From Cyanobacteria bacterium P01_A01_bin.123 (lineage in GTDB: Bacteria; Cyanobacteriota; Cyanobacteriia; Phormidesmidales; Phormidesmidaceae): DNA of 54,698 nt. The stretch covers positions 1-54,698 of the forward strand of contig JBCBZT010000049.1 of NCBI GenBank assembly GCA_039815185.1, given 5' to 3'. Of the stretch, positions 18,187 through 54,698 are shown in pieces. The notes under the pieces are model-generated. The model did no database searches, was not told where the DNA came from, and saw only the letters and a program-made list of their open reading frames with translations. Position 1 is the stretch's first letter; each line of letters begins with the position of its first letter. The translations under genes were made by a program, and so were the position numbers.

Positions 18187-18257
18187 GGCGGCATGGCCAA
18201 GTGGTAAGGCAGAGGATTGCAAATCCTTTATCCCCAGTTCGAATCTGGGTGCCGCCT
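18187..18257 (+). tRNA. trnC: tRNA-Cys (GCA)
   Basis: Complete cloverleaf GGCGGCA...GAGGA-TT-GCA-AA-TCCTT...GTTCGAATC...TGCCGCC-T. Confidence 0.98.
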
Positions 18258-18269
18258 TTATTTATGTTG

Positions 18270-18438: not shown

Positions 18439-19557
18439 GTGACGGCAAACGGTAATAAGGCATTGAACATTGCCAACGGTCGGTTAAAAGCGGCAAAGAT
18501 TCCAGCCCGGATCAATATCCAAGATGGCAAGCTTTATTTGAGGGCCACGTTGCCCCCAAAGCCGGGTAGCACCAAAAGCACACCCTATCAGCAGCGGATT
18601 GCGTTGGGCCTTGATGCCGTTGGGCGCTGCATCAAAATTGCTGAGGATAAAGCCCGATTACTGGGCCTACAGCTTGAATCGGGTAATTTTGATTGGGAGC
18701 AATGGGGCACCACTAAGCGGGCTGAATCAGTAGTTGACTGGGTAGAACGGTTTGAAGCCGATTTTTTCAAGCGTGGGGGCACTCAAACAACCTGGAAGGG
18801 GGATTATCTGCAAAGCTTCCGCAAGCTGCCCCCAGATGCCCCGTTAACCCTGCCCTTACTGATATCGGTAGCTGAGAACCAAACTGCAAACAGTAAGCCA
18901 CGTCAGCGGGTTTGCATGGCCTTCAAGCGGTTAGCTGACTTTGCGGGCATCGAGGGCACTGATCAACTAACCGTCATCAGAGGCACCTATTCAAGTGATG
19001 AAGTTGATCCGCGTTCGTTACCCGATGACGAACAGTTAGCCATTTTCAGGGATTCGATTACAAACGCTGCCTGGCAATGGGTGTTTTCGATGATGGCTTG
19101 TTATGGCCTGAGACCCCACGAATGCTTTAAATGTGACTTATCGGAGTTTCCGACAATTCATGTTGAAGGCGATACGAAAACAGGTGCTAGATTTGTTTGG
19201 CCGCTCTATCCAGAATGGGCTAAACAATGGGGATTGCAGGATATCAAACTGCCTAATATTGATTTTGAAAACTTCACCAATGCCAAAATAGGCACTAAGG
19301 TTTCTAGATACTTTTATACTCAGAAATTTGACAAATGCAATGGCGACACTTTGACTGCTTATGAGCTGAGGCATTGTTACGCGAGGCGATTGCTACAGTT
19401 TGGGTTTAGTCCTGAGTTTGGGGCAAAGATGATGGGGCATAGCCCAGATGTTCACTGTCGGGTTTATCGGCGTTGGATTGATAAAGCAACCTATGAGGCT
19501 ATTTACGCCAAAACGATAGGCAATCCAGAGAGACCTAAGCCGCCTGTTCTGGCGTAA
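18439..19557 (+). CDS. Tyrosine recombinase / phage integrase
   Basis: Catalytic set appears intact: YGLRPHE, TKTG, LRHCYARR, MMGHS, VYRRW. Lies adjacent to the tRNA 3' end. Confidence 0.95.
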   Translation: MTANGNKALNIANGRLKAAKIPARINIQDGKLYLRATLPPKPGSTKSTPYQQRIALGLDAVGRCIKIAEDKARLLGLQLESGNFDWEQWGTTKRAESVVDWVERFEADFFKRGGTQTTWKGDYLQSFRKLPPDAPLTLPLLISVAENQTANSKPRQRVCMAFKRLADFAGIEGTDQLTVIRGTYSSDEVDPRSLPDDEQLAIFRDSITNAAWQWVFSMMACYGLRPHECFKCDLSEFPTIHVEGDTKTGARFVWPLYPEWAKQWGLQDIKLPNIDFENFTNAKIGTKVSRYFYTQKFDKCNGDTLTAYELRHCYARRLLQFGFSPEFGAKMMGHSPDVHCRVYRRWIDKATYEAIYAKTIGNPERPKPPVLA

Positions 19558-19624
19558 ATCAATTGCTTGAAAAATTCGAGGCGCTGCGCGCCAACAGAGG
19601 GCAAAAAGGCAAAAAGGAAAAGGG

Positions 19625-20476
19625 CTAGCTGGAAGCGTCCGTCGGGGCTGAACATACAACTCGAAAACCGATAAAGTAGAGGCGGAACACGGGGTCGTAG
19701 CTGAGGCGAGAGGCAGACCGGCAGTACCACGGAAAGTCGTCCCAAGAACCGCCGCGTCTGATACGACTTACGCTTTCATTCTCAGTTAACCAGACACTCC
19801 CGTCTCTAGGTGCACCTTTATAGCTATCGTGCCAGTGGTCTAAACACCATTCCCATACGTTGCCATGCATATCACATAGGCCCCAAGCATTGGCCACATC
19901 AAAGTAATCAACCGGGGTGGTTTCTTGACGATATTCGCCCTTTGGCCCACGACCATAGGCCCCATACTGCTCATTTGTGCCGTTGTAGTTGGCCAGATCG
20001 GTGGTGATGGTTTCACCAAAGTGAAAAGGGGTATCCGTTCCTGCTCGACAGGCATATTCCCACTCAGCTTCGGTCGGTAGGCGATACCCTCGTCTAGTGT
20101 GACGAGCCAGGCGATCGCAAAACTCCACTGCTTCATCCCAACTCACGCTCTCAACCGGGCGTTTATCCCCCTTGACTCGCGACGGATCAGGCTTTAACGC
20201 TTGCTTCACCAGTTCTAGATTTGCCACGAAGCGCCATTGGGCCTGGGTGACAGGATACTTACCCATAAAGAAGCTGGGCACGGTTACATTATGCTGAGGG
20301 CCTTCAGCATCTGTTCGGTCTAGCTCGTCGTCTGGGGAGCCCATTGTGAAGCTGCCACCAGGGATTTGCATCATCCGTAGCAGTACTCCCTCCCCTAGCA
20401 GCTCATCGAAACATGGGTGTTGGGCTTTGCGTTTATTGATGGTGATTTTGGGCTGGCTTTCTTGGGTGGTTGGCAT
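19625..20476 (-). CDS. FGE-sulfatase (SUMF1 / C-type lectin fold) protein, DGR target-like
   Basis: FTMGS, YPVTQAQW, YRLPTEAEWEYACRAGT, DMHGNVWEW and RGGSW...GFRVVC motifs. Confidence 0.95.
   Translation of the reverse strand: MPTTQESQPKITINKRKAQHPCFDELLGEGVLLRMMQIPGGSFTMGSPDDELDRTDAEGPQHNVTVPSFFMGKYPVTQAQWRFVANLELVKQALKPDPSRVKGDKRPVESVSWDEAVEFCDRLARHTRRGYRLPTEAEWEYACRAGTDTPFHFGETITTDLANYNGTNEQYGAYGRGPKGEYRQETTPVDYFDVANAWGLCDMHGNVWEWCLDHWHDSYKGAPRDGSVWLTENESVSRIRRGGSWDDFPWYCRSASRLSYDPVFRLYFIGFRVVCSAPTDASS
19652..19756 (-). repeat. DGR-type variable repeat VR1
   Basis: 105-bp segment homologous to 20617-20721 and 21615-21719. Differences are concentrated in codon positions 1-2. Confidence 0.85.
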
Positions 20477-20589
20477 GGGGGGGAAGCAGCTAGGAGTTAG
20501 AAGTTAGGAGGTTGTGAAGGCAGAACTTCAGCTAGAAAATTCGAGGCGCTACGCGCCAACAAAGGGCAAAAAACCAAAAGCGGAAAGGG

Positions 20590-21417
20590 CTAACTGGAAG
20601 AGTCCATCGGGGCAGCACACACAACTCGAAAACCGATAATGTAGTAGCGGACGACGGGAAAGTAGTTGAAGCAAAAGGCAGACCGGCAGAACCTCGGACT
20701 GTCGTCCCAAGAACCGCCGCGTAGGACACGACTGGCATCTTTGTCTTCAGTTAACCAGGCACGGCCATCTTCAGGTGCGTCTCCATAGCTGCCATGCCAG
20801 TGGTCTAAGCACCATTCATAAACATTGCCATGCATATCGCATAGGCCCCAGGCATTGGCTACATCAAAGTGATTTACAGGGGTGGTTTCTTCACGATACT
20901 CACCTTCTGGGCCACCGTTGTAAGTGTATCTGCCGTTGTAATTCGCTAGTTCTGTCGTTAGGGTTTGGCCAAACGAGAAGGGGGTTTTCGTGCCTGCTCG
21001 ACAGGCATATTCCCACTCGGCCTCACTGGGAAGACGGTAAGGGCGACCAGAGTAACGCGCCAGACGATCGCAGAACTCTACCGCCTCATACCAAGAAACT
21101 CGCTCTACGGGACGATTAGGGCCTTTGAAATTGGACGGATCGGTATCAAGTTCTCGATTTACTTCAGGCATCTTGGCCACCACACGCCATTGGGCTTGGG
21201 TAATGGGATAGCGCCCCATAAAAAAGGTTGGCACAGTGACATCATGCTGAGGGCCTTCATCATCTTCCCGATCAGGTTCATCTGATAGAGACCCCATGCT
21301 AAAGGTGTCACCGCGAATCAAAAGCATGTCGAGGGAAATGGCATCGCCAAGGCCCTCTAGGGGCTCAGTAAAGCATTGAGCAGTTGTCGGGGTGCGACGG
21401 AGGGTGAAGGGGGGCAT
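20590..21417 (-). CDS. FGE-sulfatase (C-type lectin fold) protein, DGR target-like
   Basis: Same FGE motifs; paralog of its neighbours. Confidence 0.95.
   Translation of the reverse strand: MPPFTLRRTPTTAQCFTEPLEGLGDAISLDMLLIRGDTFSMGSLSDEPDREDDEGPQHDVTVPTFFMGRYPITQAQWRVVAKMPEVNRELDTDPSNFKGPNRPVERVSWYEAVEFCDRLARYSGRPYRLPSEAEWEYACRAGTKTPFSFGQTLTTELANYNGRYTYNGGPEGEYREETTPVNHFDVANAWGLCDMHGNVYEWCLDHWHGSYGDAPEDGRAWLTEDKDASRVLRGGSWDDSPRFCRSAFCFNYFPVVRYYIIGFRVVCAAPMDSSS
20617..20721 (-). repeat. DGR-type variable repeat VR2
   Basis: Aligns to VR1 and VR3 without gaps. Confidence 0.85.
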
Positions 21418-21432
21418 CGGAGAAACACTGAA

Positions 21433-21580
21433 TGGGCCAGAGAACTCTTCGGTTACCCTACCAAGCTAACTGACCCTTTTGGTTTTCGGATGCCGTTGCC
21501 GACATCACAGGGATAGATCTGGACTCTTCAAAACACGCCCGACAGATTCCCACCTGCCAGTTCTGGCACTGAAGAGTATT
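21433..21580 (-). ncRNA. Structured non-coding segment, probable remnant of the DGR RNA region downstream of a template repeat
   Basis: Minus-strand stems CTCTTCA...TGAAGAG, GATGTCG-GCAA-CGGCATC and GGGTCAG...TTGGTAG...CGAA...CTGGCCC, located directly after VR3. Confidence 0.55.
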
Positions 21581-21596
21581 TCTCCTTCGGAGACGC

Positions 21597-24506
21597 TCAC
21601 GCGAACGGGGCAGCACACACAACTCGAAAACCGAAAGGGTTGAAGCGGACGTCGGGGAAGAAGCTGAGGCGATAGGCAGACCGGCAGTCCCCCGGATCGA
21701 CGTCCCAAGACCCGCCGCGTAGGATACGCCTTGCATTTTCGTTATTAGTTGACCAAGCACTGCCATCCTCCGTAGCACCTCGGTAACTGTCGTGATAGTG
21801 ATCACGACACCACTCATAAACATTTCCATGCATATCAGACAAACCAAAAGTGTTGGCTACACCAAAGTGATCAACAGGTGTAGTCTCTTCTCGATATTCT
21901 CCAGCAGGGCCATCCGCAAAGGTCGTTGTGCCCCGGTAGTTGGCCAGCTCTGATGAAATGGTTGCGCCAAAATGAAAAGGTGTTTCTGTCCCAGCACGAC
22001 AGGCATATTCCCACTCAGCTTCGGTAGGTAGGCGGTATTCTCTTTGGGTGTGATTAGAGAGGCGATCGCAAAACTCCACCGCTTCATACCAACTCACTTG
22101 CTCAACCGGACGATTATCCCCCTTAAAGCGCGACGGATCAGGATTTAACTTGCGGTTGACTTGCTCCAGACCAGCAACAAAACGCCATTGGGCCTGTGTG
22201 ATAGGGTAGCGCCCCATAGAGAACGGCTGGACGGTAACTTTGTGTTGAGGCCCTTCTCGGTCATATCGATCGGGTTCAGTATCTGGAGAGCCCATGGTGA
22301 AGGTATCACCCAGAATGTAGACCATTTCCACTCCCCCATCCTCTGCAATAACCTGTAAAACCTCTTTAACAGCAGCTAGCCCAGACCCCGTAGGCCCCTC
22401 TGCCCACTGCAACAAGGAATAAGTGCGCCTTTCTTGAGAGGAAGCCGTCGCAACGCCGTATGGTCTTCCCAAAGCAACCAACACCTGATCAAATTGCCCC
22501 TCAGGAAGTGCATTCAAGCAGCTGATGAGTGCTTGTTTTTGATCCGCAGCATCTTGAAGTTGAAGGTCGGGACTTGGCAAGCGACTCAGTACTTCAACAA
22601 AGCGTCGTGCTTGCCCTCGTCGCTTATTAATCACCCATTCAGCACGCTGACGGAACAACCCCCGCTGCTGTTTTTCAAGGGTTGCAATTTCAAATTCAAA
22701 CAGCTCTAGGCCATTAACAGAGTCTGACTCAAATGCGATGGTCGCAACTGTAAAGCCGTCCATCTGAATGGGTGGCCACTCAGCTTCAGGGTTAGGGAGA
22801 TCTTCAGCATCAATTAATTGAGCCTGCATAAAATCGAGAGTGCGTAGAGGCGGTATCTCAAAAGCAGGTCGCTGAATAAGTGAGCCAGACTCAACAGGGC
22901 GATCTAGAGTATCCACCAATGCTGCGTAGTCTCCCCCCATTTGCTGCAACACTTGCTTAGCAAGATTGGCAAATTTCAACAGGTCTGAACCGGTAGCTTC
23001 CCCTAACTCATTTTCTAGCTGTAGGAGCGCTGTGAAGCTGTAGATACTTCGATTCAACTTTTTGCCAATATATTGTGAAACCCGATCGAGTACTGCTTCC
23101 TTAACAGGAGTAGGCACCGAGGCAATCAGGGGTTCTCGCACATCTGGCAAAAAGTCATAGGTTGGTTGACTGTAAGAGGAAGAGCCTTCTCCTGTTGAAT
23201 CATCCGTGCGCTCGACCAGACCACTCATAAAAATCTCCGCTAGATGTAGCGGTGTGGACTCTGGCAGCATCGCCGCTTGTAAGAGATAGATAATCGGCAA
23301 GTCCACAGGCACCAACGCCATCAACCCAGCCAGCCGCTTTGCCAACCCAGACGCCGTTGTGGTGAACCGCTTCACCAGTTGCTCTGCTGTCAGGGGCATA
23401 GCTGAGGATGCTGAGGGGATCTGTAGGGTTTGCCATCCCTGATCAAACCAGATGCCTGCTGCCCAACTCTCGCCCCACCCAGACACCATCTTTGCCCATG
23501 GGGTCAATGAATTCGGCTCCAGAGTAATGACAGGTAGCTTTAAACCTTCAGATGCATTTTGCTCAGCACCAATAGGAGGCTCTTGAAACAAAAGTTGCTG
23601 GTTAGTTACACCCGGCATCCAAGCCCCTAACTGTACTTCTAGACCTGCGCTCAAAACCGTGCGCGACCATAGATGGCCAGGTAACAACTGCACAATTGCC
23701 AAAGGACTATGGGCTGCCCAAAGCTCTAGACACGCCTGATGCAGTTCGCCAGTGCGCCAAGCCGACGAAATACAGTCACTCACCAATAAGATCAACCGAC
23801 GCCCTGATGCATCAAGCAGTTCTTTAGGGCTGCGAGACGGTTGTTGAGACGTTTTTGTAGGTGACTTAGCAAACAGCTTAATTGCACCTGATGAGGTTTG
23901 AAGATGCCATACTGTGACCGCCCGAAAAGCCCCTTGACGCTCTAGTACCTGTTTGAAATCACGAATGGTCTCTCGCCAAAGAATGCTGGCCGCAGAGTCT
24001 TCAATCACCAATGCCACCTCTAGCCATCGTTCTTTGGCAGGTCGCACCACCGTCATGCAAAATCGTTGCTCTGCCGTTTGTTCTGCCGTGGCATCTTCGT
24101 CTAAAATCTGCTGCGTGTAGGAATCCACCTTACGCATCAGCGGGCGCAGGGCTCGACCAATGGCCAAGGTTTTTCGCAATGCCGGGGCCGTCGGGGCTTG
24201 AAATGGAATACCTTTCTTGGCGGGAGCTGATTGTTTGGCTTGCGGCTGAGTCCTGCCTGAATAAAGACCAATCCCAGGATCTGGAGGGGGTGGGGGAACT
24301 GGCTGAGACAGATTGGTTTGCTGCCGCATAGGCGTAGGTGATGCTTGAGGAGAGGATGCCTGGGAACTTTGGGTGATTTCTCCGTCCATATAGCGGGATA
24401 GCCACATCAAGTCAGCAATCTTTTCAGCATCCCAATCGATCCCAGCCCCTCTAAGGCGAGCAATTAGCTCTGATAATGCTGCATGAGGTGCTACCGAGTC
24501 GCTCAT
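21597..24506 (-). CDS. vWA-like (SAV_2336-type N-terminus) protein fused to a C-terminal FGE-sulfatase domain; vWA component of a ternary conflict system
   Basis: IGRALRPLMRKV, LEVALVIEDS, LILLVSDCIS and IVQLLP..LW, followed by the full FGE motif set. Confidence 0.88.
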   Translation of the reverse strand: MSDSVAPHAALSELIARLRGAGIDWDAEKIADLMWLSRYMDGEITQSSQASSPQASPTPMRQQTNLSQPVPPPPPDPGIGLYSGRTQPQAKQSAPAKKGIPFQAPTAPALRKTLAIGRALRPLMRKVDSYTQQILDEDATAEQTAEQRFCMTVVRPAKERWLEVALVIEDSAASILWRETIRDFKQVLERQGAFRAVTVWHLQTSSGAIKLFAKSPTKTSQQPSRSPKELLDASGRRLILLVSDCISSAWRTGELHQACLELWAAHSPLAIVQLLPGHLWSRTVLSAGLEVQLGAWMPGVTNQQLLFQEPPIGAEQNASEGLKLPVITLEPNSLTPWAKMVSGWGESWAAGIWFDQGWQTLQIPSASSAMPLTAEQLVKRFTTTASGLAKRLAGLMALVPVDLPIIYLLQAAMLPESTPLHLAEIFMSGLVERTDDSTGEGSSSYSQPTYDFLPDVREPLIASVPTPVKEAVLDRVSQYIGKKLNRSIYSFTALLQLENELGEATGSDLLKFANLAKQVLQQMGGDYAALVDTLDRPVESGSLIQRPAFEIPPLRTLDFMQAQLIDAEDLPNPEAEWPPIQMDGFTVATIAFESDSVNGLELFEFEIATLEKQQRGLFRQRAEWVINKRRGQARRFVEVLSRLPSPDLQLQDAADQKQALISCLNALPEGQFDQVLVALGRPYGVATASSQERRTYSLLQWAEGPTGSGLAAVKEVLQVIAEDGGVEMVYILGDTFTMGSPDTEPDRYDREGPQHKVTVQPFSMGRYPITQAQWRFVAGLEQVNRKLNPDPSRFKGDNRPVEQVSWYEAVEFCDRLSNHTQREYRLPTEAEWEYACRAGTETPFHFGATISSELANYRGTTTFADGPAGEYREETTPVDHFGVANTFGLSDMHGNVYEWCRDHYHDSYRGATEDGSAWSTNNENARRILRGGSWDVDPGDCRSAYRLSFFPDVRFNPFGFRVVCAAPFA
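21615..21719 (-). repeat. DGR-type variable repeat VR3
   Basis: Aligns to VR1 and VR2 without gaps. Confidence 0.85.
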
Positions 24507-25501
24507 CAGGCACCTGGCCCAGATAGGGGTTTCAACAGCTTATCTCGCAGTTGCTCTCTCGCTTTATCTGTCGGTATGCCACTCTGCCGTAGTAGATAAA
24601 TGGCGTTCAACAACTGATCAGTTGCTAATTCCTGGCCTTGTGTATCCCGCTTCTCTAAGAAGCTTTGAATAATGGATTTTGCTTCTTCCAAAACATTCTC
24701 ATCTCGGAGATGCTGCTGCACAATATCTGATAATTCAGCCTCGTTAGGTTCTCGCATATCCAATCGAATGCACCGCCGTAGAAATGGAGGTGGAAAATCT
24801 CGTTCACCGTTGCTAGTCAAAATCACAAAGGGAAAAGTATTGCACTGCACCTGCCCTGCTGGAATGGTCACGGTTGAGTCCTGGTTTTCATAGGCAGTAC
24901 TCACTTGCACGGTCGGCAACACTTCCTTGATACGCTCCAACTCAGGGATGCGATAGCGGCCTTCTTCGAAGGCATGGAGCAAATCGTTAGGGAGATCAAT
25001 ATCACTTTTGTCGATCTCATCAATCAGCAAGATACGAGGCCGCTTTAAATTTTCAACGGGCAATAAGGCTGTACCCAAAGGCCCTAAACGAATATATTTG
25101 CCAATATCTTTGAGCGTTTCACTCAGGTCATTAGACTGTCGCTCTTTTTGCTGAGAGTCTTGCAGACGCCCAATCGCGTCATAGCTATACAGGCCATCTT
25201 TGAGTGTGGTTCGGGTCGTGACTGGCCAGTAAAGAACTTCCCCCAGCTTTAACTCACGAGCCACAGCATAGGCCAGAGAAGTTTTTCCGGTTCCCGGTTT
25301 CCCCGTTATTAGTAGGGGGCGACGTAGATACAGTGCGGCATTCACCAAATCAATTTCTTCAGGTCTTGCCTTAAACGTGGCCCCTTTTTGTTGCTGTCGC
25401 GTTTGCTCATCTTTAAAGACACGCCAGTTAGGTGGGTCTGGCAAACGCTCCAAACCATCGTGGGGTTGTCCAGTCCCTTCAAAAATCTTCCAACTGGTCA
25501 T
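24506..25501 (-). CDS. MoxR family AAA+ ATPase
   Basis: VNAALYLRRPLLITGKPGTGKT, LLIDEIDKSDIDLPNDLL and TSNGERDFPPPFLRRC motifs. Confidence 0.95.
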   Translation of the reverse strand: MTSWKIFEGTGQPHDGLERLPDPPNWRVFKDEQTRQQQKGATFKARPEEIDLVNAALYLRRPLLITGKPGTGKTSLAYAVARELKLGEVLYWPVTTRTTLKDGLYSYDAIGRLQDSQQKERQSNDLSETLKDIGKYIRLGPLGTALLPVENLKRPRILLIDEIDKSDIDLPNDLLHAFEEGRYRIPELERIKEVLPTVQVSTAYENQDSTVTIPAGQVQCNTFPFVILTSNGERDFPPPFLRRCIRLDMREPNEAELSDIVQQHLRDENVLEEAKSIIQSFLEKRDTQGQELATDQLLNAIYLLRQSGIPTDKAREQLRDKLLKPLSGPGA

Positions 25502-27339
25502 AATAGCTGCTCATCAGAGTAGGTAATGCTAGGCGGCACACGATAAAAATCTTCCCACAGAAAGGATAGGTGATGCCCCAATTCTGGAGGGGCCTCTGGA
25601 TCACCATCTTCATCTAGCGCTGGCGTTTCCCGTCGCAAAGCACTCACTTTTTTCGGTACCTGTTCAAGGCAGTCATCCAAAATATCATTGTGCAAACGAT
25701 TAGCCAATTCACAACCCTGGCACCGCAGCCAAACAGCTGTTGGAGTTCCCGTTGCCAGCAGCACACCGATTTCTCCTTGCTTAGCAGCCTTGGGGAGTTT
25801 TTGCGTAAGCTTTAGTCCCAAAGCCGATTTGAGGGGTGTTTGCAAACTTTTGGCAGACAAGGCATCACCATCCACAAAGGCATCTATAGCCGCCGAATTG
25901 AGTTCAGTTTGCAAGCGATTCCATTTGGCTTCCCATAGCTTTTGCCCCCGTGCATACTCCAACCGTTCCTGGGAGCGGATCACAATATGAGCACAATCTG
26001 CATCGATCCCAAGCAGCATAGGGAATCCATATTCGTCCGGAACCAGGCATTGCTCAATGGGCTGATTAATCAGCGCCATCGGCAAAAAGAACTCAATAGT
26101 TAACTCCTGTAGTGACAGGCCACGTTTAGCAACTTGATCTACATAGACCGCTAAAAATATGGGCAGATGTTTGTAGTCGATACCATTCGTAAAGTCGATG
26201 GCGTCAGGGTTTTCAACGTATTTTTGCCAATCTGAGTCTGCTAAGGCTTCTGCCCCTTCTCCCGTTGTCGGGTCATAGCCCTCACCGGTGGCAGAATTGT
26301 ATCGCCTGGTATCAGGCACTATCCAAGCGTTCACTTGGTAAGGCTCCTTTTTAGTATTCCGATCTGCCTGAATACTGATCAACAAGCAGGGCTGAAATGG
26401 ATGTGCCTGTCGAGAGACGATTTCTTCTCGCTGTTGCTTTATTTGGGCCAACAAGGTTGAGAGCTCAATATCGTTATGTTTATAGCGCTCGATCCAGCCT
26501 AATAGTTTATCTTGAAGCTGTTCAACGCCTGGTAGGCCCCACAGGCAGGCGGCAAATTCCACCAACTTACCCTCTGACATCTGGGCAATGTCAGTGAGTT
26601 GTGATGCTAACTTATTTTGGAAAGGTTCTGACCAAGTATCAGGTCGGCACACCTTGTAGGCTGTCGTGATTTGTGACGCTAAGGTGCTCTGATGGGGGCG
26701 CAGCAATACTAACAGTGAGTGAAGCTTAACCTGGTTTAATGCAGCCTGGAGCTTTTGAATAGGCAGGATGAAGCCAACTTTAGCAGTGTCTTGTCCCTGG
26801 TGGCGGGCAACGACCATCCCTACAGTGCCTGGACTTTCATCCCGTTGCCATACTGGCGACCCGCTGAAACCTGGTTCAATGGCTAATCCAGGTTCTTTCG
26901 TATCTTCAACTTGCACCCATCCGCCGTCTACTTCGCCTCGGGTAACAGCAGTTAAATTGCGTCCAGCAGCGTCACTGCCTGGATAGCCAAAAATCTGTAG
27001 TGCCGCTCTATTGAATTGACGTAAGGGGTGTCTGGGGGCAGATGTTATCCCTAACGGAAGGGCTGAGGGTAAATACAATACTGCCGCATCTTGTCCATAG
27101 GTTGATGCTTCTAGCTCAAAAAAGATGACCTTGGCTAGCTGAGGCTCACTCGTATCAAAAAAGGTTATTTGCAGAGAAGCTCCTATTACTTCATCGGCAG
27201 CAAACAAAGCGGCTTCGACAACATGGGCACAGGTCAACACATAGTTCTCTGCTATCAAGAAACCAGTTCCAGCGATACTATCTGTGCTGTTCTGGTAATG
27301 AATTTTGGCGATCGCCCGTTTGCTAGATTCAAACGTCAT
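25498..27339 (-). CDS. Trypsin-like serine peptidase fused to VMAP (vWA-MoxR associated protein) domains
   Basis: Catalytic triad LTCAHVV / DAAVL / GFSGSPV; VMAP-C-like IEFFLP, IRSQERL, G.P.AVW.R and HLSFLWED. Confidence 0.88.
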   Translation of the reverse strand: MTFESSKRAIAKIHYQNSTDSIAGTGFLIAENYVLTCAHVVEAALFAADEVIGASLQITFFDTSEPQLAKVIFFELEASTYGQDAAVLYLPSALPLGITSAPRHPLRQFNRAALQIFGYPGSDAAGRNLTAVTRGEVDGGWVQVEDTKEPGLAIEPGFSGSPVWQRDESPGTVGMVVARHQGQDTAKVGFILPIQKLQAALNQVKLHSLLVLLRPHQSTLASQITTAYKVCRPDTWSEPFQNKLASQLTDIAQMSEGKLVEFAACLWGLPGVEQLQDKLLGWIERYKHNDIELSTLLAQIKQQREEIVSRQAHPFQPCLLISIQADRNTKKEPYQVNAWIVPDTRRYNSATGEGYDPTTGEGAEALADSDWQKYVENPDAIDFTNGIDYKHLPIFLAVYVDQVAKRGLSLQELTIEFFLPMALINQPIEQCLVPDEYGFPMLLGIDADCAHIVIRSQERLEYARGQKLWEAKWNRLQTELNSAAIDAFVDGDALSAKSLQTPLKSALGLKLTQKLPKAAKQGEIGVLLATGTPTAVWLRCQGCELANRLHNDILDDCLEQVPKKVSALRRETPALDEDGDPEAPPELGHHLSFLWEDFYRVPPSITYSDEQLL

Positions 27340-27703
27340 CCGTACTGCCTGATGCTTTCTCTTGATCCTTTCCCCACTTCAGCTTGACTTCAAAGGTCAC
27401 ATCTCCACCGACAGAGCCAAACACAACACCTGCTTCGGCAGCGAGTTTGAGCCCAAAGGTCACTTCCACTTCATCAGCAGGCGTTGTTAGTCCTGACCTC
27501 AACCGAGACACAACCGTTGAAGCAACAGGTTTGATGGTGTCTAGTGCTTGTTCAAGGGTTTGAGTTGCCTGATAGACCATCTGCTTCGTATTCACCGAAG
27601 CTACCCGCTGAATAGAGCCGCCTTGAGTGGGCTTCGGTGTATCTACCTCAACCAGAAAGGCAGTCCCGTCTTCGAGCTTGAATTGGGCTAGTTCTTTTTC
27701 CAT
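27329..27703 (-). CDS. Trypsin-co-occurring (Trypco1 / CU044_2847 family) protein
   Basis: DGT.FLVEV and PADEVEVTFGLKLAAEAG....FEVKLKW; overlaps the start of the peptidase gene. Confidence 0.88.
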   Translation of the reverse strand: MEKELAQFKLEDGTAFLVEVDTPKPTQGGSIQRVASVNTKQMVYQATQTLEQALDTIKPVASTVVSRLRSGLTTPADEVEVTFGLKLAAEAGVVFGSVGGDVTFEVKLKWGKDQEKASGSTDDV

Positions 27704-28489: not shown

Positions 28490-28759
28490 TTAATTCTGGG
28501 TAGCCTGTAACTTCTCAATCTGCCGCACGTTAAACAGATACGTCCACTTAGCAGCATCAGGGTTTTTAGGCTTCCAATGCGTCCCACGCTTCAACGTCCC
28601 GTTGTCGATCATCCGCTTCAACGTCCACCGGGACACACCTAACAATTCTGTAGCCTGCGACGTTGGATACCAAGTCTTGCCCGCAGGTCTCCCTGGTCGC
28701 GGTTGAGGCAAACTTAGCCCCAGCTGGTCGCTTTGGTAGGGGGGCTCCACTTTAGCCAT
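28490..28759 (-). CDS. Excisionase-like helix-turn-helix protein
   Basis: WYPTSQATELLGVSRWTLKRMIDNGTLKRGTHW is a MerR/Xis-type HTH. A G-rich RBS precedes the ATG at 28759. Confidence 0.8.
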   Translation of the reverse strand: MAKVEPPYQSDQLGLSLPQPRPGRPAGKTWYPTSQATELLGVSRWTLKRMIDNGTLKRGTHWKPKNPDAAKWTYLFNVRQIEKLQATQN

Positions 28760-28937
28760 ATACCCCCCTATCAACTGCCACAATACAAAGCCGTTCGATC
28801 AGTCGTTCCAGTGCGCCGCTGTCGCAAGTGGTGGGATGGCCATCATCGCACCACGGCGTTAACTCATCCCAACGCTGATATCTCAGCTTTGCCCTGAGGA
28901 CATCCACTTCAGTGATAAGCAAAGACAGGTTTTCCAT
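28752..28937 (-). CDS. Small hypothetical protein
   Basis: Fills the gap between the Rep-like and xis-like genes with tight coupling. Confidence 0.55.
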   Translation of the reverse strand: MENLSLLITEVDVLRAKLRYQRWDELTPWCDDGHPTTCDSGALERLIERLCIVAVDRGVYG

Positions 28938-28939
28938 CA

Positions 28940-30370
28940 CTACACCCCCTCCAACCCTGTGGATAACCCCTTCTCTCCCCCAGACCCCCACACTTCCCCT
29001 GGAGGTAAATATTCTCCGGGCAGAGATTTCAACGCTACACTCTTCATACTTGTGTCAAGGTGTAAAAAAACGTTGCCCATCAAGGGTTGTGACGGCTTCG
29101 GTTGATGATCTTCTAGGCTGGGTATTTGCCCTTTATTTCGGGCTAGAACCCCTGCCAATAGGAAGTTTTTACACCCTTCGTCGCAGACGGCTGGATGCCA
29201 TAGCTCTTTATGCTTGTAGAGTGTCTTTGTTGAGACACCGATTTTGTTGACCAGCGCTTTAACCCAATCGGTAACGGTTTGAAGCTTGTCTCCTAGTTCA
29301 GCATGTAGCGCGATGACGGCCCTATATATCCTCTGAGATGCTTCATCCGCCCTCTGCTGGTTGCCATTGGGCACATCCACAGAGACGGGGTAGGGAGCTT
29401 TTTTGTAGGGTTGTGTCCCCGCTGGATAGTAGTAGTTCTCAACCGATCGCGCCCAGCTAGCAGCACGGCGGTTGATCTCTAATCGGTGCTGACACCAGCG
29501 GTCATAGCCGGGAGATGATTGGGCAGTGTCGCTGGTGTACTGGGCTAAGTCAGCCCCCTCTAGCCCTAGAAAGACACGGCCATAGGTGGCAATGCTCTTA
29601 AGGATGTGGTTGGTTTGCCCGAAGTCTGTCCAGCCTTCACCTATCTCGCTCTCCAAGTCTTCTCGCCACTGGCGCAACGGGGTCAATATGCGGCGTCTTC
29701 CCCGGTTGCGTTTGGCAGTGGCGAGCGCCTGTTTCAGCAATTCATCGTCTTGGGCCTGGGCAGCATAGTCCCAGCTCCAAAAGAAGCGTTTGAGTTCTCC
29801 CCCCACGGGTTGCAAATCATGGTTAAGCAGTGCCGAACCGCTGCCGGGTTGCAATGGCAGACGATGGCCGTTGTACTCAACAAATTCACCCAACCAGCAC
29901 CGGCCAAAGGTTTTACGGTTTGGGAAAATCTCTAATTGACCAGGCGCGATGGTGAACCCCTGCGCTTTTAGTGCGCCCTTGATGGCGACGGCCAGATTAA
30001 ACGTGTTGACTGGCTCAGGCAGAGGGATATAGATGTGGATGCCCCCTGACCAAGATGATCTCACCTTGACAGTTCGCACGATGCCGAGGGTTTCTAATGC
30101 ACCCTCGATGTCAGCGATCGCTTTCGAGTTTAGATAGTCACTCTTGCAGTCGATGTCGAGCATCGCGTAAGCGGTTGTGCTGCCAAACCGGACGCCGATT
30201 TGGACGGCAGCATCCTGCCAGTGCTTCCAGAGCAATCGGGGTCGCAAGGGATAGCGTGTCTCGGTTACCCAGTTATGATCATCATGCTTTAACAAAAACT
30301 GCCAGGGGTAGCGGCAAAAGGTTTCGCAGATGCGTTGACCCATCAGGTCTTGGGGTAGCGGGTTTGTCAT
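28940..30370 (-). CDS. Putative AEP-type primase / replication protein
   Basis: LDID motif, RSSWSGGIHIY, LEIFPN, RLPL; C-terminal HTH-like GVSTKTLYK. Confidence 0.7.
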   Translation of the reverse strand: MTNPLPQDLMGQRICETFCRYPWQFLLKHDDHNWVTETRYPLRPRLLWKHWQDAAVQIGVRFGSTTAYAMLDIDCKSDYLNSKAIADIEGALETLGIVRTVKVRSSWSGGIHIYIPLPEPVNTFNLAVAIKGALKAQGFTIAPGQLEIFPNRKTFGRCWLGEFVEYNGHRLPLQPGSGSALLNHDLQPVGGELKRFFWSWDYAAQAQDDELLKQALATAKRNRGRRRILTPLRQWREDLESEIGEGWTDFGQTNHILKSIATYGRVFLGLEGADLAQYTSDTAQSSPGYDRWCQHRLEINRRAASWARSVENYYYPAGTQPYKKAPYPVSVDVPNGNQQRADEASQRIYRAVIALHAELGDKLQTVTDWVKALVNKIGVSTKTLYKHKELWHPAVCDEGCKNFLLAGVLARNKGQIPSLEDHQPKPSQPLMGNVFLHLDTSMKSVALKSLPGEYLPPGEVWGSGGEKGLSTGLEGV

Positions 30371-33159: not shown

Positions 33160-33459
33160 CTAACTGCTCCGGTTGCGATTCAAGATCTCGCTAATTGATT
33201 CATCTGAGCCACGGGTAACCAGGATTTGCAAAAAGCTCTTTACATCTCTGATATCTGCCTCTAAGTTGTCCAACCTTCGATCCATTTCTCGGCTTTGCTG
33301 TGTGATGATGCTAGACATCTGCTCATACTGCCTCTTGAGGTGCCCAAAATCTCGTTGGGCCGCATATTGCTTTTCAATCGAACCTTTATACCAAAGCAGT
33401 GCACCAGCAGCAAAGGAAATTGCTCCTAACGCTATAGATAGAACATTTCCCCAGTCCAT
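33160..33459 (-). CDS. Small membrane-anchored coiled-coil protein
   Basis: N-terminal TM segment followed by a heptad-like helix. Confidence 0.7.
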   Translation of the reverse strand: MDWGNVLSIALGAISFAAGALLWYKGSIEKQYAAQRDFGHLKRQYEQMSSIITQQSREMDRRLDNLEADIRDVKSFLQILVTRGSDESISEILNRNRSS

Positions 33460-33462
33460 AGT

Positions 33463-33795
33463 TTAGATCCACTCGCTAAGAGAAACAGCCCAATTAATTG
33501 CAATTGTATTAGCTGGATAAAGCCTTTTCCTAACTTGCACCTTCGGAAACTCAGCATCTATCGGCAACAGGAAATCCAGCCGATAAACCTCTTCTACGGC
33601 CCCCTTTGGGTACAACTGTACCCAATCAGCACTGAATAAATCAGCTTCCCACTGCAACCGTAGAAACCCACGGGGAAACCGCCCTGCTCTAAAGTTGCCC
33701 GTGAAACTAGCCCTGATGACATCACTTGTCAGCGATCGTGAAATTGTTTGCCAGTCATCCCCCGCAGAGATCGACCCGATCGCCCGCCACACCAT
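33463..33795 (-). CDS. Hypothetical beta-rich protein (putative virion component)
   Basis: Coupled in the minus-strand operon; alternating beta-strand pattern. Confidence 0.65.
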   Translation of the reverse strand: MVWRAIGSISAGDDWQTISRSLTSDVIRASFTGNFRAGRFPRGFLRLQWEADLFSADWVQLYPKGAVEEVYRLDFLLPIDAEFPKVQVRKRLYPANTIAINWAVSLSEWI

Positions 33796-34037
33796 TAAAA
33801 AATCACCCAGTCATCATCAGCCTGAATGATGTCTTGCTCCCTTTCCTCATACTCACCCGAGTTGAGATAGTCCCGCGCCTGGGCTTGGGTGACAGGTTCC
33901 ATCACCTCAGACCCAGGACGGACAATAAACGTAAAATCCCCCCCAGTGGCCGCTGTAACTTCCCGCCAGTTTGGGGGCGGGGTTTGATACAGCGTCAAAT
34001 TAAACAGCGGATCGCCGGGGAGAATTAGCTGAGTCAT
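33795..34037 (-). CDS. Hypothetical phage-like protein
   Basis: MTQLILPGDPLFNLTL start follows the stop of the upstream gene; TAATG coupling downstream. Confidence 0.65.
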   Translation of the reverse strand: MTQLILPGDPLFNLTLYQTPPPNWREVTAATGGDFTFIVRPGSEVMEPVTQAQARDYLNSGEYEEREQDIIQADDDWVIF

Positions 34038-34041
34038 CACA

Positions 34042-34638
34042 CTAAGGCGTCTGTAAGGGGTCTTGACCTTCAGATTGATATTTCCAACCATCCGCTAACT
34101 GTGAGTTGGGATCAACAAAGGTGCTAATCGTATTGGTTTCATCCCCCAACACGATGGTTTGATAAGCTCTAGGCGGCTTCGGACTAGATGCTCCCCAAAT
34201 CAAATCTGAATCATCAGACGTGGCCGCCCGGACTCCCATCTGAGTTAAATCAGCTTGGTACGCTTGCCAGTTGCGTAGCGGAATATTCCAAGCATATTTA
34301 ACCCCCAGCAGCGTCACGTACACAGAAATAGAAAACTGAGTTGATCCTCCCCTGCGAATCTTGGCCTTCCCCACCCGCCATCCCTGCGTCCTCGCCGTGG
34401 GAATCGCCGCTACATCGATAAAACTGCTCACTGTACCCGAGGCAAACCGCCTTGATGCCCGAGCAGGCTTCGGGCTATTCGCCCCAATCACCGTACCCGC
34501 TGGGGTATCCCCCGTAATCTCGTTGTGGCCCAGCTGGGCACTTTGGGCCGTATCAATATTGGTCTTGAACCCATAGTTGAATAACGCCCCATTAAAGGGC
34601 ACCACCGACACCAATCGCCGCGAATCATAAACCCCCAT
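34042..34638 (-). CDS. Hypothetical protein with internal duplication (putative structural)
   Basis: Strong RBS AGGAGG; repeated motif GANSPKPARA / GASSPKPPRA. Confidence 0.8.
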   Translation of the reverse strand: MGVYDSRRLVSVVPFNGALFNYGFKTNIDTAQSAQLGHNEITGDTPAGTVIGANSPKPARASRRFASGTVSSFIDVAAIPTARTQGWRVGKAKIRRGGSTQFSISVYVTLLGVKYAWNIPLRNWQAYQADLTQMGVRAATSDDSDLIWGASSPKPPRAYQTIVLGDETNTISTFVDPNSQLADGWKYQSEGQDPLQTP

Positions 34639-34689
34639 CGGGTTATCCTCCTGTTTATTGGATTAATTAACTTGATTGACTGTGGAGGA

Positions 34690-35046
34690 CTAGACCGCGC
34701 CAGTAATTTCAGACTCCTGAAGCGGCACTGACACCCGAATCGTATGCGTTTTAACTGATACGATACTGCCGTCTGTTTGGGTGACTGGGTTGCCCCTTGT
34801 GGGCGATGGGAAGCCGTTTAAGGGCGTTGTGGGGGCTGGGTCAGTGGAGTTATAAGCAACCTGTGCGGTGCTGGCTCCCGACAACAGCTTAGAAATCGCT
34901 TCAGATACTTTTTCGTCCGTCAACGCAACAGCCGTTTCACCCATCAGTGTCTTAAGGCTAATGGTGACATCATTGTTGCCAGCATCCTCAACGAGCGCAT
35001 TAGCGGGCAACTGAGCTGCCAGGTTAGTAAAAGTTAGATCCGCCAT
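34690..35046 (-). CDS. Hypothetical protein (putative structural), paralog of 35213-35557
   Basis: Shares AD..F..L.A.LP.N, NDV.IS.K, AQ..YN and V.VPL...EITG with the neighbour. Confidence 0.8.
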   Translation of the reverse strand: MADLTFTNLAAQLPANALVEDAGNNDVTISLKTLMGETAVALTDEKVSEAISKLLSGASTAQVAYNSTDPAPTTPLNGFPSPTRGNPVTQTDGSIVSVKTHTIRVSVPLQESEITGAV

Positions 35047-35212
35047 GATTTCAATCCTTGCTCAAGCCATTTGAACAAGCTCAGCATAGCCGAATCAAAC
35101 TGCCGCAAACCCCTGCTATTGCTGACTTAAATCGTTTGAAATTGTTGTAGGAACCCTTAGGGTTCTGACAAACCTCCAACAACTTAGAAGGGTGCCATTA
35201 ATTTTTATTAAG

Positions 35213-35557
35213 TCAGAAGGTCACCCCAGTGATCTCATCAGAATTCAAAGGAACTTGCACCGTTAACGTCTGGACACGTAGAGCCGTTAACCCTCCACTG
35301 CCGTCAGTTGTGGGGATGCCATAGGTCGGGGGGTGATAGGAGCTTAGCTCCGGCGTGTTTCTAGCGTTATAAAACGCTTGGGCCTTAGCCGCTGCGAGTA
35401 ATAGGGTTGATAACGCTTGAGCTACCTTGCGGTCTAATCCGTTCACATCGCTGCCAATCATTGCTTTGATCGAAATTTTCACGTCGTTATCGCCATAAAT
35501 CAGCGTGTTGTTTGGCAAGTTTGCTTGTAGTTCGGCAAAGCTAATATCAGCAGTCAT
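35213..35557 (-). CDS. Hypothetical protein (putative structural), paralog of 34690-35046
   Basis: End-to-end similarity to the adjacent ORF. Confidence 0.8.
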   Translation of the reverse strand: MTADISFAELQANLPNNTLIYGDNDVKISIKAMIGSDVNGLDRKVAQALSTLLLAAAKAQAFYNARNTPELSSYHPPTYGIPTTDGSGGLTALRVQTLTVQVPLNSDEITGVTF

Positions 35558-35610
35558 CTTGGAAGCCTTTCGATAAAATTTGAAAATATCTTAACGCTGG
35601 GAGTTCAGCT

Positions 35611-36426
35611 GTGCCGGAAATTCAGCAGGTTTATAGCCGTTCTGTCCAAATCCTTCATCAATTCAATCGTCAGTCAGGGGACAAGATTAAAACTATCTAT
35701 CAACCCGGCGTTTTAACCCCCTTTGACCAAACCCATAGCCTCAGATTTTATGGCTTTATTACTGAGTTAAAGTGCAAGATTGATATTAAAAGCTTGGCTG
35801 AGTCTGAGTTGCCGAATGTTGATGTGAATACCAGTCGAACTGACCGCGTTGCTGCTGTTCGAGATTTAGAATGGAAAAGTGAAAGAAAGCAGCTGGATTT
35901 GTTCCTAGCCACTACTGACAGCGGCGGCTGGATACAGATTGCCAGTCTAAGCCTGTTAAATAGACTGCCCTTTTATATTGTTAATCTGTTGGCCTACCTC
36001 AGCAGCAATATTGCGTTTCAGGTTGCCAGTAATGCCAAGTTAGGACTAGCCATCACCGACGTGGGTTATGGGCTGCTGGATGGGAACGACACGGTTACGA
36101 TTTTCGGAGCGGCAAAAGAAGAGATTACAACGCTGCCCAGTCACTCGCCTGTTATCACCACGGCTCAAAACTATGCTGTCCCGGTTGGCACTCAATCAGC
36201 CACGGCATTAACGCTTAATCCCCATCGGAAACAGGCGACTTTTGTGAATCGCTCCAATACTGAAACAGTTTGGCTCAGCTATGCGCCAATGGCTGAGTTG
36301 GGTAAGGGCTTAGAATTGCGTCCGCGTGGGGGAGCCTATGAGATTAACAACAGCAATCCCTATCAAGGGGCTGTATCAGCCATTGCTTCTGGCAATGCAG
36401 AACTATCCATCATGGAAGCGGTTTAA
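35611..36426 (+). CDS. Hypothetical protein, putative virion protein
   Basis: 271 aa; C-terminal beta-sandwich-like segment RKQATFVNRS..TVWL...GLELRPRGGAYE...YQGAVSAI. Confidence 0.75.
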   Translation: MPEIQQVYSRSVQILHQFNRQSGDKIKTIYQPGVLTPFDQTHSLRFYGFITELKCKIDIKSLAESELPNVDVNTSRTDRVAAVRDLEWKSERKQLDLFLATTDSGGWIQIASLSLLNRLPFYIVNLLAYLSSNIAFQVASNAKLGLAITDVGYGLLDGNDTVTIFGAAKEEITTLPSHSPVITTAQNYAVPVGTQSATALTLNPHRKQATFVNRSNTETVWLSYAPMAELGKGLELRPRGGAYEINNSNPYQGAVSAIASGNAELSIMEAV

Positions 36427-36428
36427 TC

Positions 36429-36599
36429 ATGGATTATTTGCGGTTTTCAGACTTCCAACAACCCGAAAACCTAATATTTTATGACCCTATTTTTAACTGT
36501 GGTGAATTTGAGTATTTAATTCTACATGCTGAAATGTATCAGCGCAGAGAGCTTTCCTATGGGGTGATTTACCCAATCACCGAGGAAAGCTTTATATGA
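36429..36599 (+). CDS. Small hypothetical protein (56 aa) absent from the ORF track
   Basis: MDYLRFSDF...TEESFI* exactly fills the operon gap, with an ATGA overlap on the next gene. Confidence 0.6.
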   Translation: MDYLRFSDFQQPENLIFYDPIFNCGEFEYLILHAEMYQRRELSYGVIYPITEESFI

Positions 36600-38515: not shown

Positions 38516-38517
38516 TC

Positions 38518-40041: not shown

Positions 40042-40043
40042 CC

Positions 40044-40862: not shown

Positions 40863-40867
40863 CACTT

Positions 40868-41119
40868 ATGACAATTATTTTTGAGGCGATTAGAAACCTG
40901 CGCCCAAAGGCACAGTTTAATTGTGGGGATAGTTTGGACTCAATCGCGTGGCTCGACCATGAGAAAAAGCCCACTGATGCTGAGATTTTGGCTGAAGTAG
41001 ATAGGCTCGATAAGCTGGCTCAACTCCCCCCCTCAGACTGGAACGGCTTTCGTAGGTGACGCTACACAAACCCGCACTATAAAGCCCTGCTTAGGAATAA
41101 GGCGGGGTTAATGCAAGCC
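40868..41119 (+). pseudogene. XkdW-like fibre-associated gene with a probable premature stop or truncation
   Basis: AIRNLRP.AQF......I.W....KPT.AEI; TGA at 41057-41059, after which the frame continues RYTNPHYKALL up to the cmr gene end. Confidence 0.55.
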
Positions 41120-42802: not shown

Positions 42803-42840
42803 AGTTTGATCCAAGAATTCGACAGTTATTTTGACCCGCT

Positions 42841-43398: not shown

Positions 43399-43460
43399 AC
43401 TGGCCCCTTGCAAATACTGCGTCTCTCTAGAGTAAGCAAAATCATCAATTTGATTAGAGA

Positions 43461-43853: not shown

Positions 43854-43855
43854 GA

Positions 43856-44674: not shown

Positions 44675-44717
44675 AGGTATTGAGCTTTGTGAAACGTCTA
44701 AGGTGTAGTAATTTTTG

Positions 44718-47707: not shown

Positions 47708-47991
47708 ACGACCTGCCAATTAATGAGTCGATGACGTAGATTTGGACACACTGTAACAGCCTGTTGGAAGGCGGGCTTTCCAAATAGAATGTGTTCCAAT
47801 AACGCAATACAGAGCAGTAGCGCTGTTTCTGGATGGTGCAATGAGGCTTAACCATTTCTGTAGGTTGCTGTTAAAGCCCCCTGGTAAGCAATTGGAAGAG
47901 GGTACTTCCAGGTTTGAGATTTTATATAAGTAAGCGACTTTGAACGTTAGATCGAGACGCTTTACCGAGAAAGCAGCTTTAAGGATCTTCT

Positions 47992-48915: not shown

Positions 48916-48919
48916 GCAG

Positions 48920-54670: not shown

Positions 54671-54698
54671 TATTGAAGCAGTTTACCAAAGTTTTATC

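What the first reader, a model, noticed from the sequence alone, without database searches (positions are those of the whole stretch)
19625..27703. Mobile VMAP-MoxR-vWA conflict system with hypervariable sensor domains and a protease effector
Seen: a tightly coupled operon of Trypco1, trypsin-VMAP with an intact catalytic triad, MoxR ATPase and vWA-FGE fusion, followed by two stand-alone FGE paralogs that each end in a VR. Known: VMAP/MoxR/vWA ternary systems are predicted conflict or immunity systems of multicellular bacteria. Inference: DGR-diversified CLec domains act as a variable, antibody-like recognition repertoire (one fused sensor, two free sensors or decoys) that triggers a protease, and the module travels on a tRNA-integrated virus-like element. 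This is my best candidate for an uncharacterised system in the window.
Basis: partly seen in the sequence, partly recalled or inferred. Interest (0 to 1): 0.82.

Follow-up and report, generated by a model that had tools for sequence, protein, structure and literature searches.

The report
Known immune cassette, mutator excised
This is an intact example of an already described cyanobacterial immune-like gene cluster riding on an integrated mobile island, but the machinery that once hypermutated its three lectin-like binding tips appears to have been cut out, leaving a clear scar and a probably fixed set of tips.

Summary
The anatomy is real. Trypco1, trypsin–VMAP-M1–VMAP-C (triad H39/D84/S159 intact), MoxR, vWA–FGE and two stand-alone FGE genes match family profiles. 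This is the cyanobacterial VMAP-ternary system of Kaur 2020 and Doré 2024, including the CLec-sensor model, so it is not uncharacterised.

The three VRs carry a DGR footprint, but no DGR reverse transcriptase, Avd or template (TR) was found in the 8.09-Mb assembly. Directly behind the vWA–FGE VR lies the 3′ flank that normally follows a TR (89% over 144 nt to a relative's). Intact relatives read VR–Avd–RT–TR–flank–FGE. The best reading is that recombination between VR and TR removed ~1.8 kb. A contig from a second study spans the same collapsed locus. The scar occurs in 5 of 77 family loci examined, one with a half-VR/half-TR hybrid. The repertoire is therefore probably frozen, not actively 'antibody-like'.

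The cassette sits in a 49.6-kb att-bounded island at tRNA-Cys, with integrase, excisionase, an unnamed jelly-roll module and type III CRISPR. Defence function and signal direction are inferred, not shown. Verdict: new member of a known kind; the recurrent pop-out scar and the unnamed carrier element are the new bits.

The parts
18187..18257 (+). tRNA-Cys, integration site
   Evidence: ARAGORN
18212..18266 (+). att core, 55 bp; identical copy on contig C82 (223562-223616), which overlaps the window end by 47 nt; island 49,599 nt
18439..19557 (+). Tyrosine integrase, open frame of 372 aa
   Evidence: phrog_1 E7.8e-13
19625..20476 (-). FGE2: stand-alone FGE/CLec-fold protein; VR at 19655-19756
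   Evidence: PF03781 E6.4e-56; VR analysis
20590..21417 (-). FGE1: stand-alone FGE/CLec-fold protein; VR at 20620-20721
   Evidence: PF03781 E5.1e-52
21435..21578 (-). Orphaned TR 3' flank (homologue of the DGR-RNA 3' spacer): scar of the lost Avd-RT-TR cassette
   Evidence: 89% over 144 nt to L053 TR flank, E1e-45; 77% over 163 nt to L046; survey
21579..21605 (-). 27-nt insert between VR end and flank; supplies the vWA-FGE stop codon; a near-identical insert lies in the TR flank of intact locus L046 and in L120
21597..24506 (-). vWA component, 969 aa: vWA domain ~160-345 (E169/D170, D244), winged-helix-like extension ~370-485, C-terminal FGE/CLec 727-963; VR at 21618-21719
   Evidence: NF041121; model pLDDT 81; NorD vWA E6e-5; MIDAS Z9.0, STAND Z8.9; conservation
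24506..25501 (-). MoxR AAA+ ATPase with both VMAP-type N-terminal motifs, Walker A 67-74, Walker B 158-164
   Evidence: motif definitions from PMC7159879
25498..27339 (-). VMAP: trypsin (H39/D84/S159) - VMAP-M1 - VMAP-C
27329..27703 (-). Trypco1
   Evidence: PF19493 E1.3e-24
28490..28783 (-). Excisionase-like HTH
   Evidence: phrog_66 E6.5e-4
28940..30370 (-). Putative primase-type replication protein (weak hit)
   Evidence: phrog_21866 E0.015; homologues in related elements
33160..41059 (.). Conserved unnamed gene block of the carrier element; 35611-36426 models as two jelly-roll domains
41120..54698 (.). Type III CRISPR-Cas genes and array, inside the att-bounded island (other cargo)

Best explanation
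A DGR-type VMAP-ternary conflict cassette, carried as cargo by an island integrated at tRNA-Cys, whose diversifier has been excised. (1, shown) The six genes are intact members of the expected families. (2, shown by footprint) All three CLec tips were rewritten from one common template by adenine-directed retrohoming. (3, strongly inferred) The ancestral order was vWA-FGE[VR]-Avd-RT-TR-flank-FGE1-FGE2. Recombination between the direct repeats VR and TR, in their shared constant 3' end, removed ~1.8 kb, leaving the VR joined to the TR's 3' flank and the three tips fixed unless a matching DGR arrives in trans. (4, inferred from PMC10907252, untested) The CLec tip on the vWA protein binds an invader ligand. 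MoxR engages the vWA domain and remodels the complex, the VMAP trypsin is switched on and arrests or kills the cell, and the two free CLecs widen or buffer recognition. My odds: step 1 0.97, step 2 0.95, step 3 0.85, step 4 about 0.5.
For: Profiles and folds. Footprint. Over 66 non-adenine VR positions the three window VRs are 94-95% identical while third codon positions of the domain bodies are only 45-57% identical; the between-locus VR mean is 83% over 234 pairs. No mutator: the 3 RT hits are a stop-broken group II intron-type RT and two RTs only 24-33% identical to DGR RTs; a DGR RT query hits 49 of 173 family genomes but not this one; no over-cut-off Avd; no TR-like segment in whole-genome scans. 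Scar: flank present behind 5 of 5 relatives' TRs and 0 of 16 relatives' VRs inspected. 8 of 8 RT-bearing loci that I picked have VR and TR as direct repeats 1.7-2.6 kb apart around Avd/RT. The same VR-flank fusion occurs in 5 of 77 flank loci, on different target genes, one being a VR/TR hybrid. The junction is spanned by a contig with 0 differences in run X1 and by single contigs in X4 and X5 from another study. Island; HIP1 0.23-0.31/kb against 1.12 genome-wide.
Against: The genome is probably metagenome-assembled (best holder is a marine metagenome; 133 contigs, 5.99% contamination), so an unbinned RT/TR or a minority intact variant cannot be excluded; PMC10907252 reports such coexisting variants. 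The related strain in X5 differs by 363 of 3163 nt across the CLec genes against 255 of 5098 nt upstream, with small indels inside two VRs; the VR letters were not shown, so later diversification is open. No cognate TR was found anywhere: the best relatives' TRs leave 6-8 non-adenine mismatches against 0-1 for 7 cognate controls. My searches found no experimental test of any VMAP system. The vWA N-terminal motif fits only approximately.
Confidence: 0.72

Rival explanations
1. The tips are still diversified in trans by an RT/Avd/TR that is missing from the assembly, or in cis in a minority of cells with an intact cassette.
For: Draft assembly from a metagenome; trans activity and coexisting intact variants are documented (PMC10907252); the CLec region differs twice as much as the rest between strains, with VR indels.
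Against: No RT, Avd or TR in 8.09 Mb at 99.99% marker completeness. Constant VR positions have drifted to 94-95%, against 98-100% in three loci with RT and TR in place. The X1 contig runs unbroken across the VR-flank junction.
Confidence: 0.12
2. Same anatomy, opposite signal direction (Kaur model): VMAP senses, MoxR activates its trypsin, which cleaves the vWA protein and frees the CLec as a binding effector; free FGE1 and FGE2 are ready-made effectors.
For: Model as summarised in PMC10907252 section 13; FGS called the primary effector in cyanobacteria (PMC7159879); a long, apparently low-complexity linker lies before the CLec (sequence).
Against: A hypervariable ligand-binding tip with no catalytic role fits a receptor better (inference): the FGE enzyme segment carrying its cysteines is shortened and replaced by VR residues (catalytic role of those cysteines recalled).
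Confidence: 0.3
3. Not defence: a ligand-tuned signalling or regulatory module, or a decaying relic after DGR loss.
For: PMC7517822 reads cyanobacterial DGR targets as signalling/regulatory and suggests removal of the diversifier after selection.
Against: All six frames are open and catalytic residues kept, also in a second strain; the cassette is island cargo beside CRISPR-Cas, Csx3, WYL and CHAT-TPR genes.
Confidence: 0.15
4. The VR-flank junction is an assembly chimera of VR and TR repeats.
For: VR and TR share a constant 3' end; one TR(5')/VR(3') hybrid seen in L158 could be such a chimera.
Against: Unbroken contigs across the junction in three runs from two studies; the X4 piece covers 8246 window bases with 8245 of its own; the excised RT/TR is nowhere in the assembly.
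Confidence: 0.03

Closest known systems
Cyanobacterial VMAP-ternary systems with DGR (Kaur et al. 2020, PMC7159879)
   Same: VMAP>MoxR>vWA order, Trypco1 with trypsin-VMAP, VMAP-M/VMAP-C, FGS domain at the C-terminus of the vWA component, VR variability.
   Different: Kaur confirmed a TR nearby or elsewhere in the genome; none was found here. The words prophage and integrase do not occur in that main text; here the cassette is island cargo.
DGR clade 5 'antigen sensor' loci, e.g. Thiohalocapsa DGR 7 and cyanobacterial clade 5E (Doré et al. 2024, PMC10907252)
   Same: Trypsin-VMAP effector, vWA-CLec sensor model, short CLec-only targets beside a long one, degenerate loci lacking RT or TR.
   Different: There the loss is attributed to transposons and MITE-like arrays; here a clean VR-to-TR deletion is indicated, and no complete DGR remains in the assembly.
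Remote or remnant cyanobacterial DGR targets (Vallota-Eastman et al. 2020, PMC7517822)
   Same: CLec targets without a nearby RT; idea that the diversifier is removed once a variant is selected.
   Different: Their remote targets were defined against a TR in the same genome; no scar mechanism appeared in the passages read.
Bordetella phage DGR RNA (Handa et al., 10.1101/2023.10.23.563531)
   Same: A ~140-nt non-coding segment directly 3' of TR (Sp) that primes cDNA synthesis; the cyanobacterial flank has the same position and similar length.
   Different: Homology to Sp is by position only, not tested by sequence or structure; here the segment follows a coding VR.

Membership tests
VMAP-ternary system | Gene order VMAP > MoxR > vWA | tested here: met
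VMAP-ternary system | Tripartite VMAP: N-terminal effector, VMAP-M, VMAP-C | tested here: met
   PF13365, PF19963, PF20028 above cut-off
VMAP-ternary system | MoxR N-terminal motifs WxhapG and PsWRxa; intact Walker A/B | tested here: met
   residues 4-9, 24-29, 67-74, 158-164; definitions
VMAP-ternary system | vWA fold with acidic residues ending core strands | tested here: met
   Foldseek NorD vWA E6e-5; Z9.0, rmsd 3.7, 160 aligned to Rea1-MIDAS; E169 >=90% conserved and D244 invariant in 18 sequences; Pfam gave no vWA hit
VMAP-ternary system | [D/E]xxx[D/E]xxxa motif in the vWA N-terminal extension | tested here: inconclusive
   E28-xxx-D32-xx-W35: aromatic one position earlier than the printed motif
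VMAP-ternary system | Trypco1 or Trypco2 beside a trypsin VMAP | tested here: met
   PF19493
VMAP-ternary system | Physical ternary complex and counter-invader activity | not testable with these tools
   bench work needed
Diversity-generating retroelement (active) | VRs at the 3' end of CLec genes varying at template adenines | tested here: met
   19 of 25 variable columns at adenines of a non-cognate relative TR, p=2e-8
Diversity-generating retroelement (active) | Template repeat matching VRs at non-adenine sites | tested here: not met
   none in the assembly; assembly is a draft
Diversity-generating retroelement (active) | DGR reverse transcriptase and Avd | tested here: not met
   best Avd score 26 bits against cut-off 80, control genome G048 135 bits
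Diversity-generating retroelement (active) | Ongoing adenine-specific variation in reads | not testable with these tools
   only contigs were available
Formylglycine-generating enzyme (catalytic) | Cysteine-bearing active-site segment after GGS | tested here: not met
   3-residue gap and VR residues against solved FGE; role of the cysteines recalled
Site-specifically integrated element | att direct repeats, integrase, excisionase | tested here: met
Temperate virus (tailless or tailed) | Major capsid protein and packaging ATPase or terminase | tested here: inconclusive
   one two-jelly-roll protein, best match PM2 spike Z10.3, rmsd 2.4, 86 aligned; no Walker A motif in 27800-41100; other genes unnamed

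The most novel reading that the evidence does not exclude
Cyanobacterial DGRs have a built-in off switch: recombination between VR and TR pops out Avd-RT-TR and locks in a selected receptor set, a bacterial analogue of fixing a matured antibody. Such locked immune cassettes are then spread by an undescribed family of tRNA-Cys-integrating, jelly-roll-encoding temperate elements. The VR-flank scar would be a countable marker of these lock-in events.
Probability: 0.2. Interest if true: 0.7.

Novelty: new member of a known kind. Interest (0 to 1): 0.38.

Why it matters
No experimental test of a VMAP-ternary system turned up in my searches. A compact, intact, RT-free cassette with three fixed tips is a convenient construct for deciding whether the CLec is sensor or effector. 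The scar gives a simple sequence test that separates 'DGR lost by pop-out' from 'remote target' or 'assembly gap', which affects DGR counts in draft genomes: only 19 of 35 VMAP-positive family genomes had a DGR RT match. If lock-in were selected, it would add a termination step to the DGR life cycle.

Tried and rejected
TR search by BLAST, constant-position scan and peptide/AAY patterns in the own genome: nothing. VMAP query in genome contigs by word patterns: nothing. A VR-anchor pattern gave 1 TR in genome contigs, 1 VR in metagenome contigs and 0 in viral contigs; none cognate. Idea that the flank-fused vWA VR now acts as template for FGE1/FGE2: rejected, only 5 of 19 and 4 of 19 differences fall on its adenines. 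Test for loss of the upstream/flank RNA duplex: uninformative, energies mostly within about 2 sd of shuffles for TRs and scars alike. Tree of 23 CLec bodies: largely unresolved. Trypco1-trypsin complex prediction: no verdict. Promoter/terminator scan: at chance level. No RNA holder listed. CRISPR spacers of the window had no match in the genome outside arrays. Element proteins: no PHROG/NCBIfam/Atlas names and no IMG/VR loci. Weak Avd hit at C6:115034 dismissed as a generic helical-bundle protein (label recalled). The 27-nt insert as a dispersed repeat: single copy in this genome; the paper search gave nothing usable. Literature searches for a VR-TR deletion scar: 0 papers, 0, 2 and 13 listed with no relevant title or abstract start; the library lacks most subscription papers.
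Full report
OBSERVATION. The minus strand at 19625-27703 holds six open genes: Trypco1, trypsin-VMAP-M1-VMAP-C, an AAA ATPase, a 969-aa protein ending in an FGE-sulfatase domain, and two stand-alone FGE proteins; all named Pfam hits pass their cut-offs. The first four overlap by 11, 4 and 1 nt; the last two follow after 179 and 113 nt. H39, D84 and S159 are invariant in 20 of 20 aligned trypsin domains. The ATPase has both N-terminal motifs that PMC7159879 gives for VMAP-type MoxR, and intact Walker motifs. Pfam finds no vWA domain, but the N-part hits NF041121 at 434 bits, and a model of residues 91-490 (pLDDT 81) matches NorD vWA domains (E6e-5) and Rea1-MIDAS (Z9.0). A VMAP relative at E<=1e-20 occurs in 35 of 173 family genomes, this one included.

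THE VARIABLE REGIONS. The three genes end in a 102-nt stretch with 25 variable columns, distributed 11/10/4 over codon positions against 16/15/39 in the 60 codons upstream (p=8e-4). Of the 25, 15-19 fall on adenines of four relatives' TRs (p from 4e-5 to 2e-8). At 66 positions that are non-adenine in five TRs the three VRs are 94-95% identical, although third positions in the domain bodies are 45-57% identical; the mean between loci is 83% over 234 pairs. One template therefore wrote all three after the genes had long diverged.

NO MUTATOR. The assembly (8.09 Mb, 133 contigs, 99.99% complete, 5.99% contaminated) has three RT hits: a stop-broken group II intron-type RT and two unrelated long RTs (labels from my reading of the sequences). 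Four DGR RTs and four Avds from relatives find nothing above 33% identity for RT and nothing at E<0.3 for Avd. A DGR RT query matches 49 of 173 family genomes, not this one. The Avd model scores 26 bits here against a cut-off of 80, and 135 in a control genome. Whole-genome scans for a TR return only coding VR-like ends. The nearest TRs elsewhere leave 6-8 non-adenine mismatches, against 0-1 for 7 cognate controls.

THE SCAR. The 179-nt gap behind the vWA-FGE gene is not an ordinary VR flank. Bases 21578-21435 are 89% identical over 144 nt to the sequence just 3' of the TR in L053, and 77% over 163 nt to that of L046, which even shares a 27-nt insert. Of the flanks printed, 5 of 5 TRs and 0 of 16 relatives' VRs carried this segment. 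By position it corresponds to the Sp RNA that primes cDNA synthesis in the Bordetella DGR (10.1101/2023.10.23.563531, passages). In 8 of 8 RT-bearing loci that I chose for high flank similarity, a target VR and the TR are direct repeats 1.7-2.6 kb apart with Avd and RT between them; L165 and L166 continue flank-FGE-FGE exactly as the window does. Deleting VR-to-TR gives the window. The flank query gave 80 rows (79 loci) in 52 of 173 genomes; I examined 77. The script called 55 TR-preceded and 2 lacked upstream sequence. After inspection of 12 loci by eye, 5 were FGE genes fused directly to the flank and 15 were other states, such as truncated, interrupted or absent TR (L099 added and L130 removed by eye). 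The five are the window, a second gene in this genome (C6, a PNP-FGE fusion), L094, L099 and L120, on different target genes, so probably separate events. L120 is mutated in the 5' part of its VR and pure template in the 3' part, as a mid-repeat crossover predicts. Kin are not independent and this is one family, so 5 of 77 is no rate.

ARTEFACT CHECK. Only contigs were available. In run X1, a possible source of the window, a 1028-nt contig spans 20995-22022 without a difference. In X4, from another study, one contig piece covers 19569-27814 with 8245 of its own bases and 618 differences; X5 of that study also spans the junction. The collapse is real and shared by a strain about 5-11% diverged. 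Against a simple 'frozen' reading: that strain differs 11.5% across the CLec genes and 5.0% upstream, with small indels inside two VRs; the VR letters were not listed. Constant-position identity of 94-95%, against 98-100% in L038, L046 and L047 and 76-89% in the RT-less L035 and L044, suggests a moderately old loss.

CARRIER. The last 55 nt of tRNA-Cys plus flank recur exactly on contig C82, whose end overlaps the window end by 47 nt inside the CRISPR array: an island of 49,599 nt. It holds integrase, excisionase, a weak primase hit and a repressor-like HTH, the unnamed block 33160-41059, type III CRISPR-Cas, Csx3, WYL and CHAT-TPR genes. HIP1 is depleted in its left half (6 sites in 22.8 kb). 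A gene of the unnamed block occurs in 27 of 173 genomes in syntenic blocks; two such elements sit at tRNA-Cys without a VMAP cassette in the stretches fetched, so the cassette is exchangeable cargo. One protein models as two jelly rolls, best matching the PM2 spike (Z10.3) and phage cement proteins (Z9.4, 8.4). No capsid protein or packaging ATPase was identified, so 'virus-like' is plausible, not shown. The island may be a composite of several insertions.

MECHANISM. Shown: intact parts, past diversification, island. Inferred: VR-TR recombination froze the tips. Borrowed and untested: CLec binds an invader ligand, MoxR acts on the vWA domain, the trypsin fires (PMC10907252). The reverse direction, protease freeing the CLec effector, remains a live rival. 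The FGE domains are unlikely enzymes.

KNOWN WORK, AS SEEN. PMC7159879: passages and section 9 part 1: defines the system, Trypco1, FGS fusion and ~80% DGR linkage in cyanobacteria. PMC10907252: section 13, passages and supplement passages: sensor model, CLec-only targets, degenerate loci, RT-deleted variants at a VMAP locus; supplementary figures were seen as legends only and could show a similar junction. PMC7517822: passages. 10.1101/2024.09.03.611090: passages: co-expression of MoxR, vWA and a target, and low-level mutation, in Nostoc; its supplements are closed. PMC5758913 and PMC10910872: passages, little bearing. Searches for anti-phage tests or newer VMAP work listed only these. Searches for a VR-TR deletion scar found nothing relevant. 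One earlier scan note reports a template-less VMAP operon in another genome (unchecked).

VERDICT. A new member of a known kind. The recurrent pop-out scar and the unnamed carrier element lift it slightly above ordinary: interest 0.38.

Noticed in passing
window 33160-41059: Conserved block of unnamed genes, with one member in 27 of 173 family genomes, often with integrase/excisionase and twice at tRNA-Cys; 35611-36426 models as two jelly rolls like a PM2 spike or penton. No IMG/VR locus found. Possibly an undescribed family of temperate cyanobacterial elements.
   Followed up: partly
L116:10006-11586 (G000:C6): A PNP/nucleosidase-FGE gene whose VR is also fused to a TR 3' flank: a second, separate DGR scar in the same genome.
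   Followed up: partly
window 23055-23400 (vWA protein residues ~370-485): The helical extension after the vWA domain resembles the winged-helix region of STAND ATPases and CED-4 (Z8.9 and 8.4, ~97 residues). A lead only.
   Followed up: no
L158 versus L157: Near-identical RT loci; in L158 the 3' half of the TR looks VR-like. Back-conversion of the template or an assembly chimera.
   Followed up: no
L035:9041-9200; L107; L122: TRs interrupted at the same place by a short palindromic insert; L035 is the closest VMAP relative and its genome has no DGR RT match.
   Followed up: no
window 41120-54698 and L004:7200-18101: Type III CRISPR-Cas with only a cas1 fragment (49195-49581), an array of about 60 or more repeats with two repeat variants continuing on C82, two Csx3, WYL and CHAT-TPR genes, all inside the att-bounded island.
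   Followed up: no
G000:C82:223429-223533: An integrase 3' remnant lies just outside the right att copy, suggesting an older element at the same tRNA site.
   Followed up: no
G000:C2:61488-63911 and C131:48246-49835: Two long non-DGR reverse transcriptases, probably defence-type (label recalled); the group II intron-type RT on C8 is stop-broken.
   Followed up: no
window 14952-15632: Stand-alone phage-type lysozyme outside the island, left of tRNA-Cys.
   Followed up: no
window 27814-27837: The related strain in runs X4 and X5 has 481 other bases here, just upstream of Trypco1.
   Followed up: no
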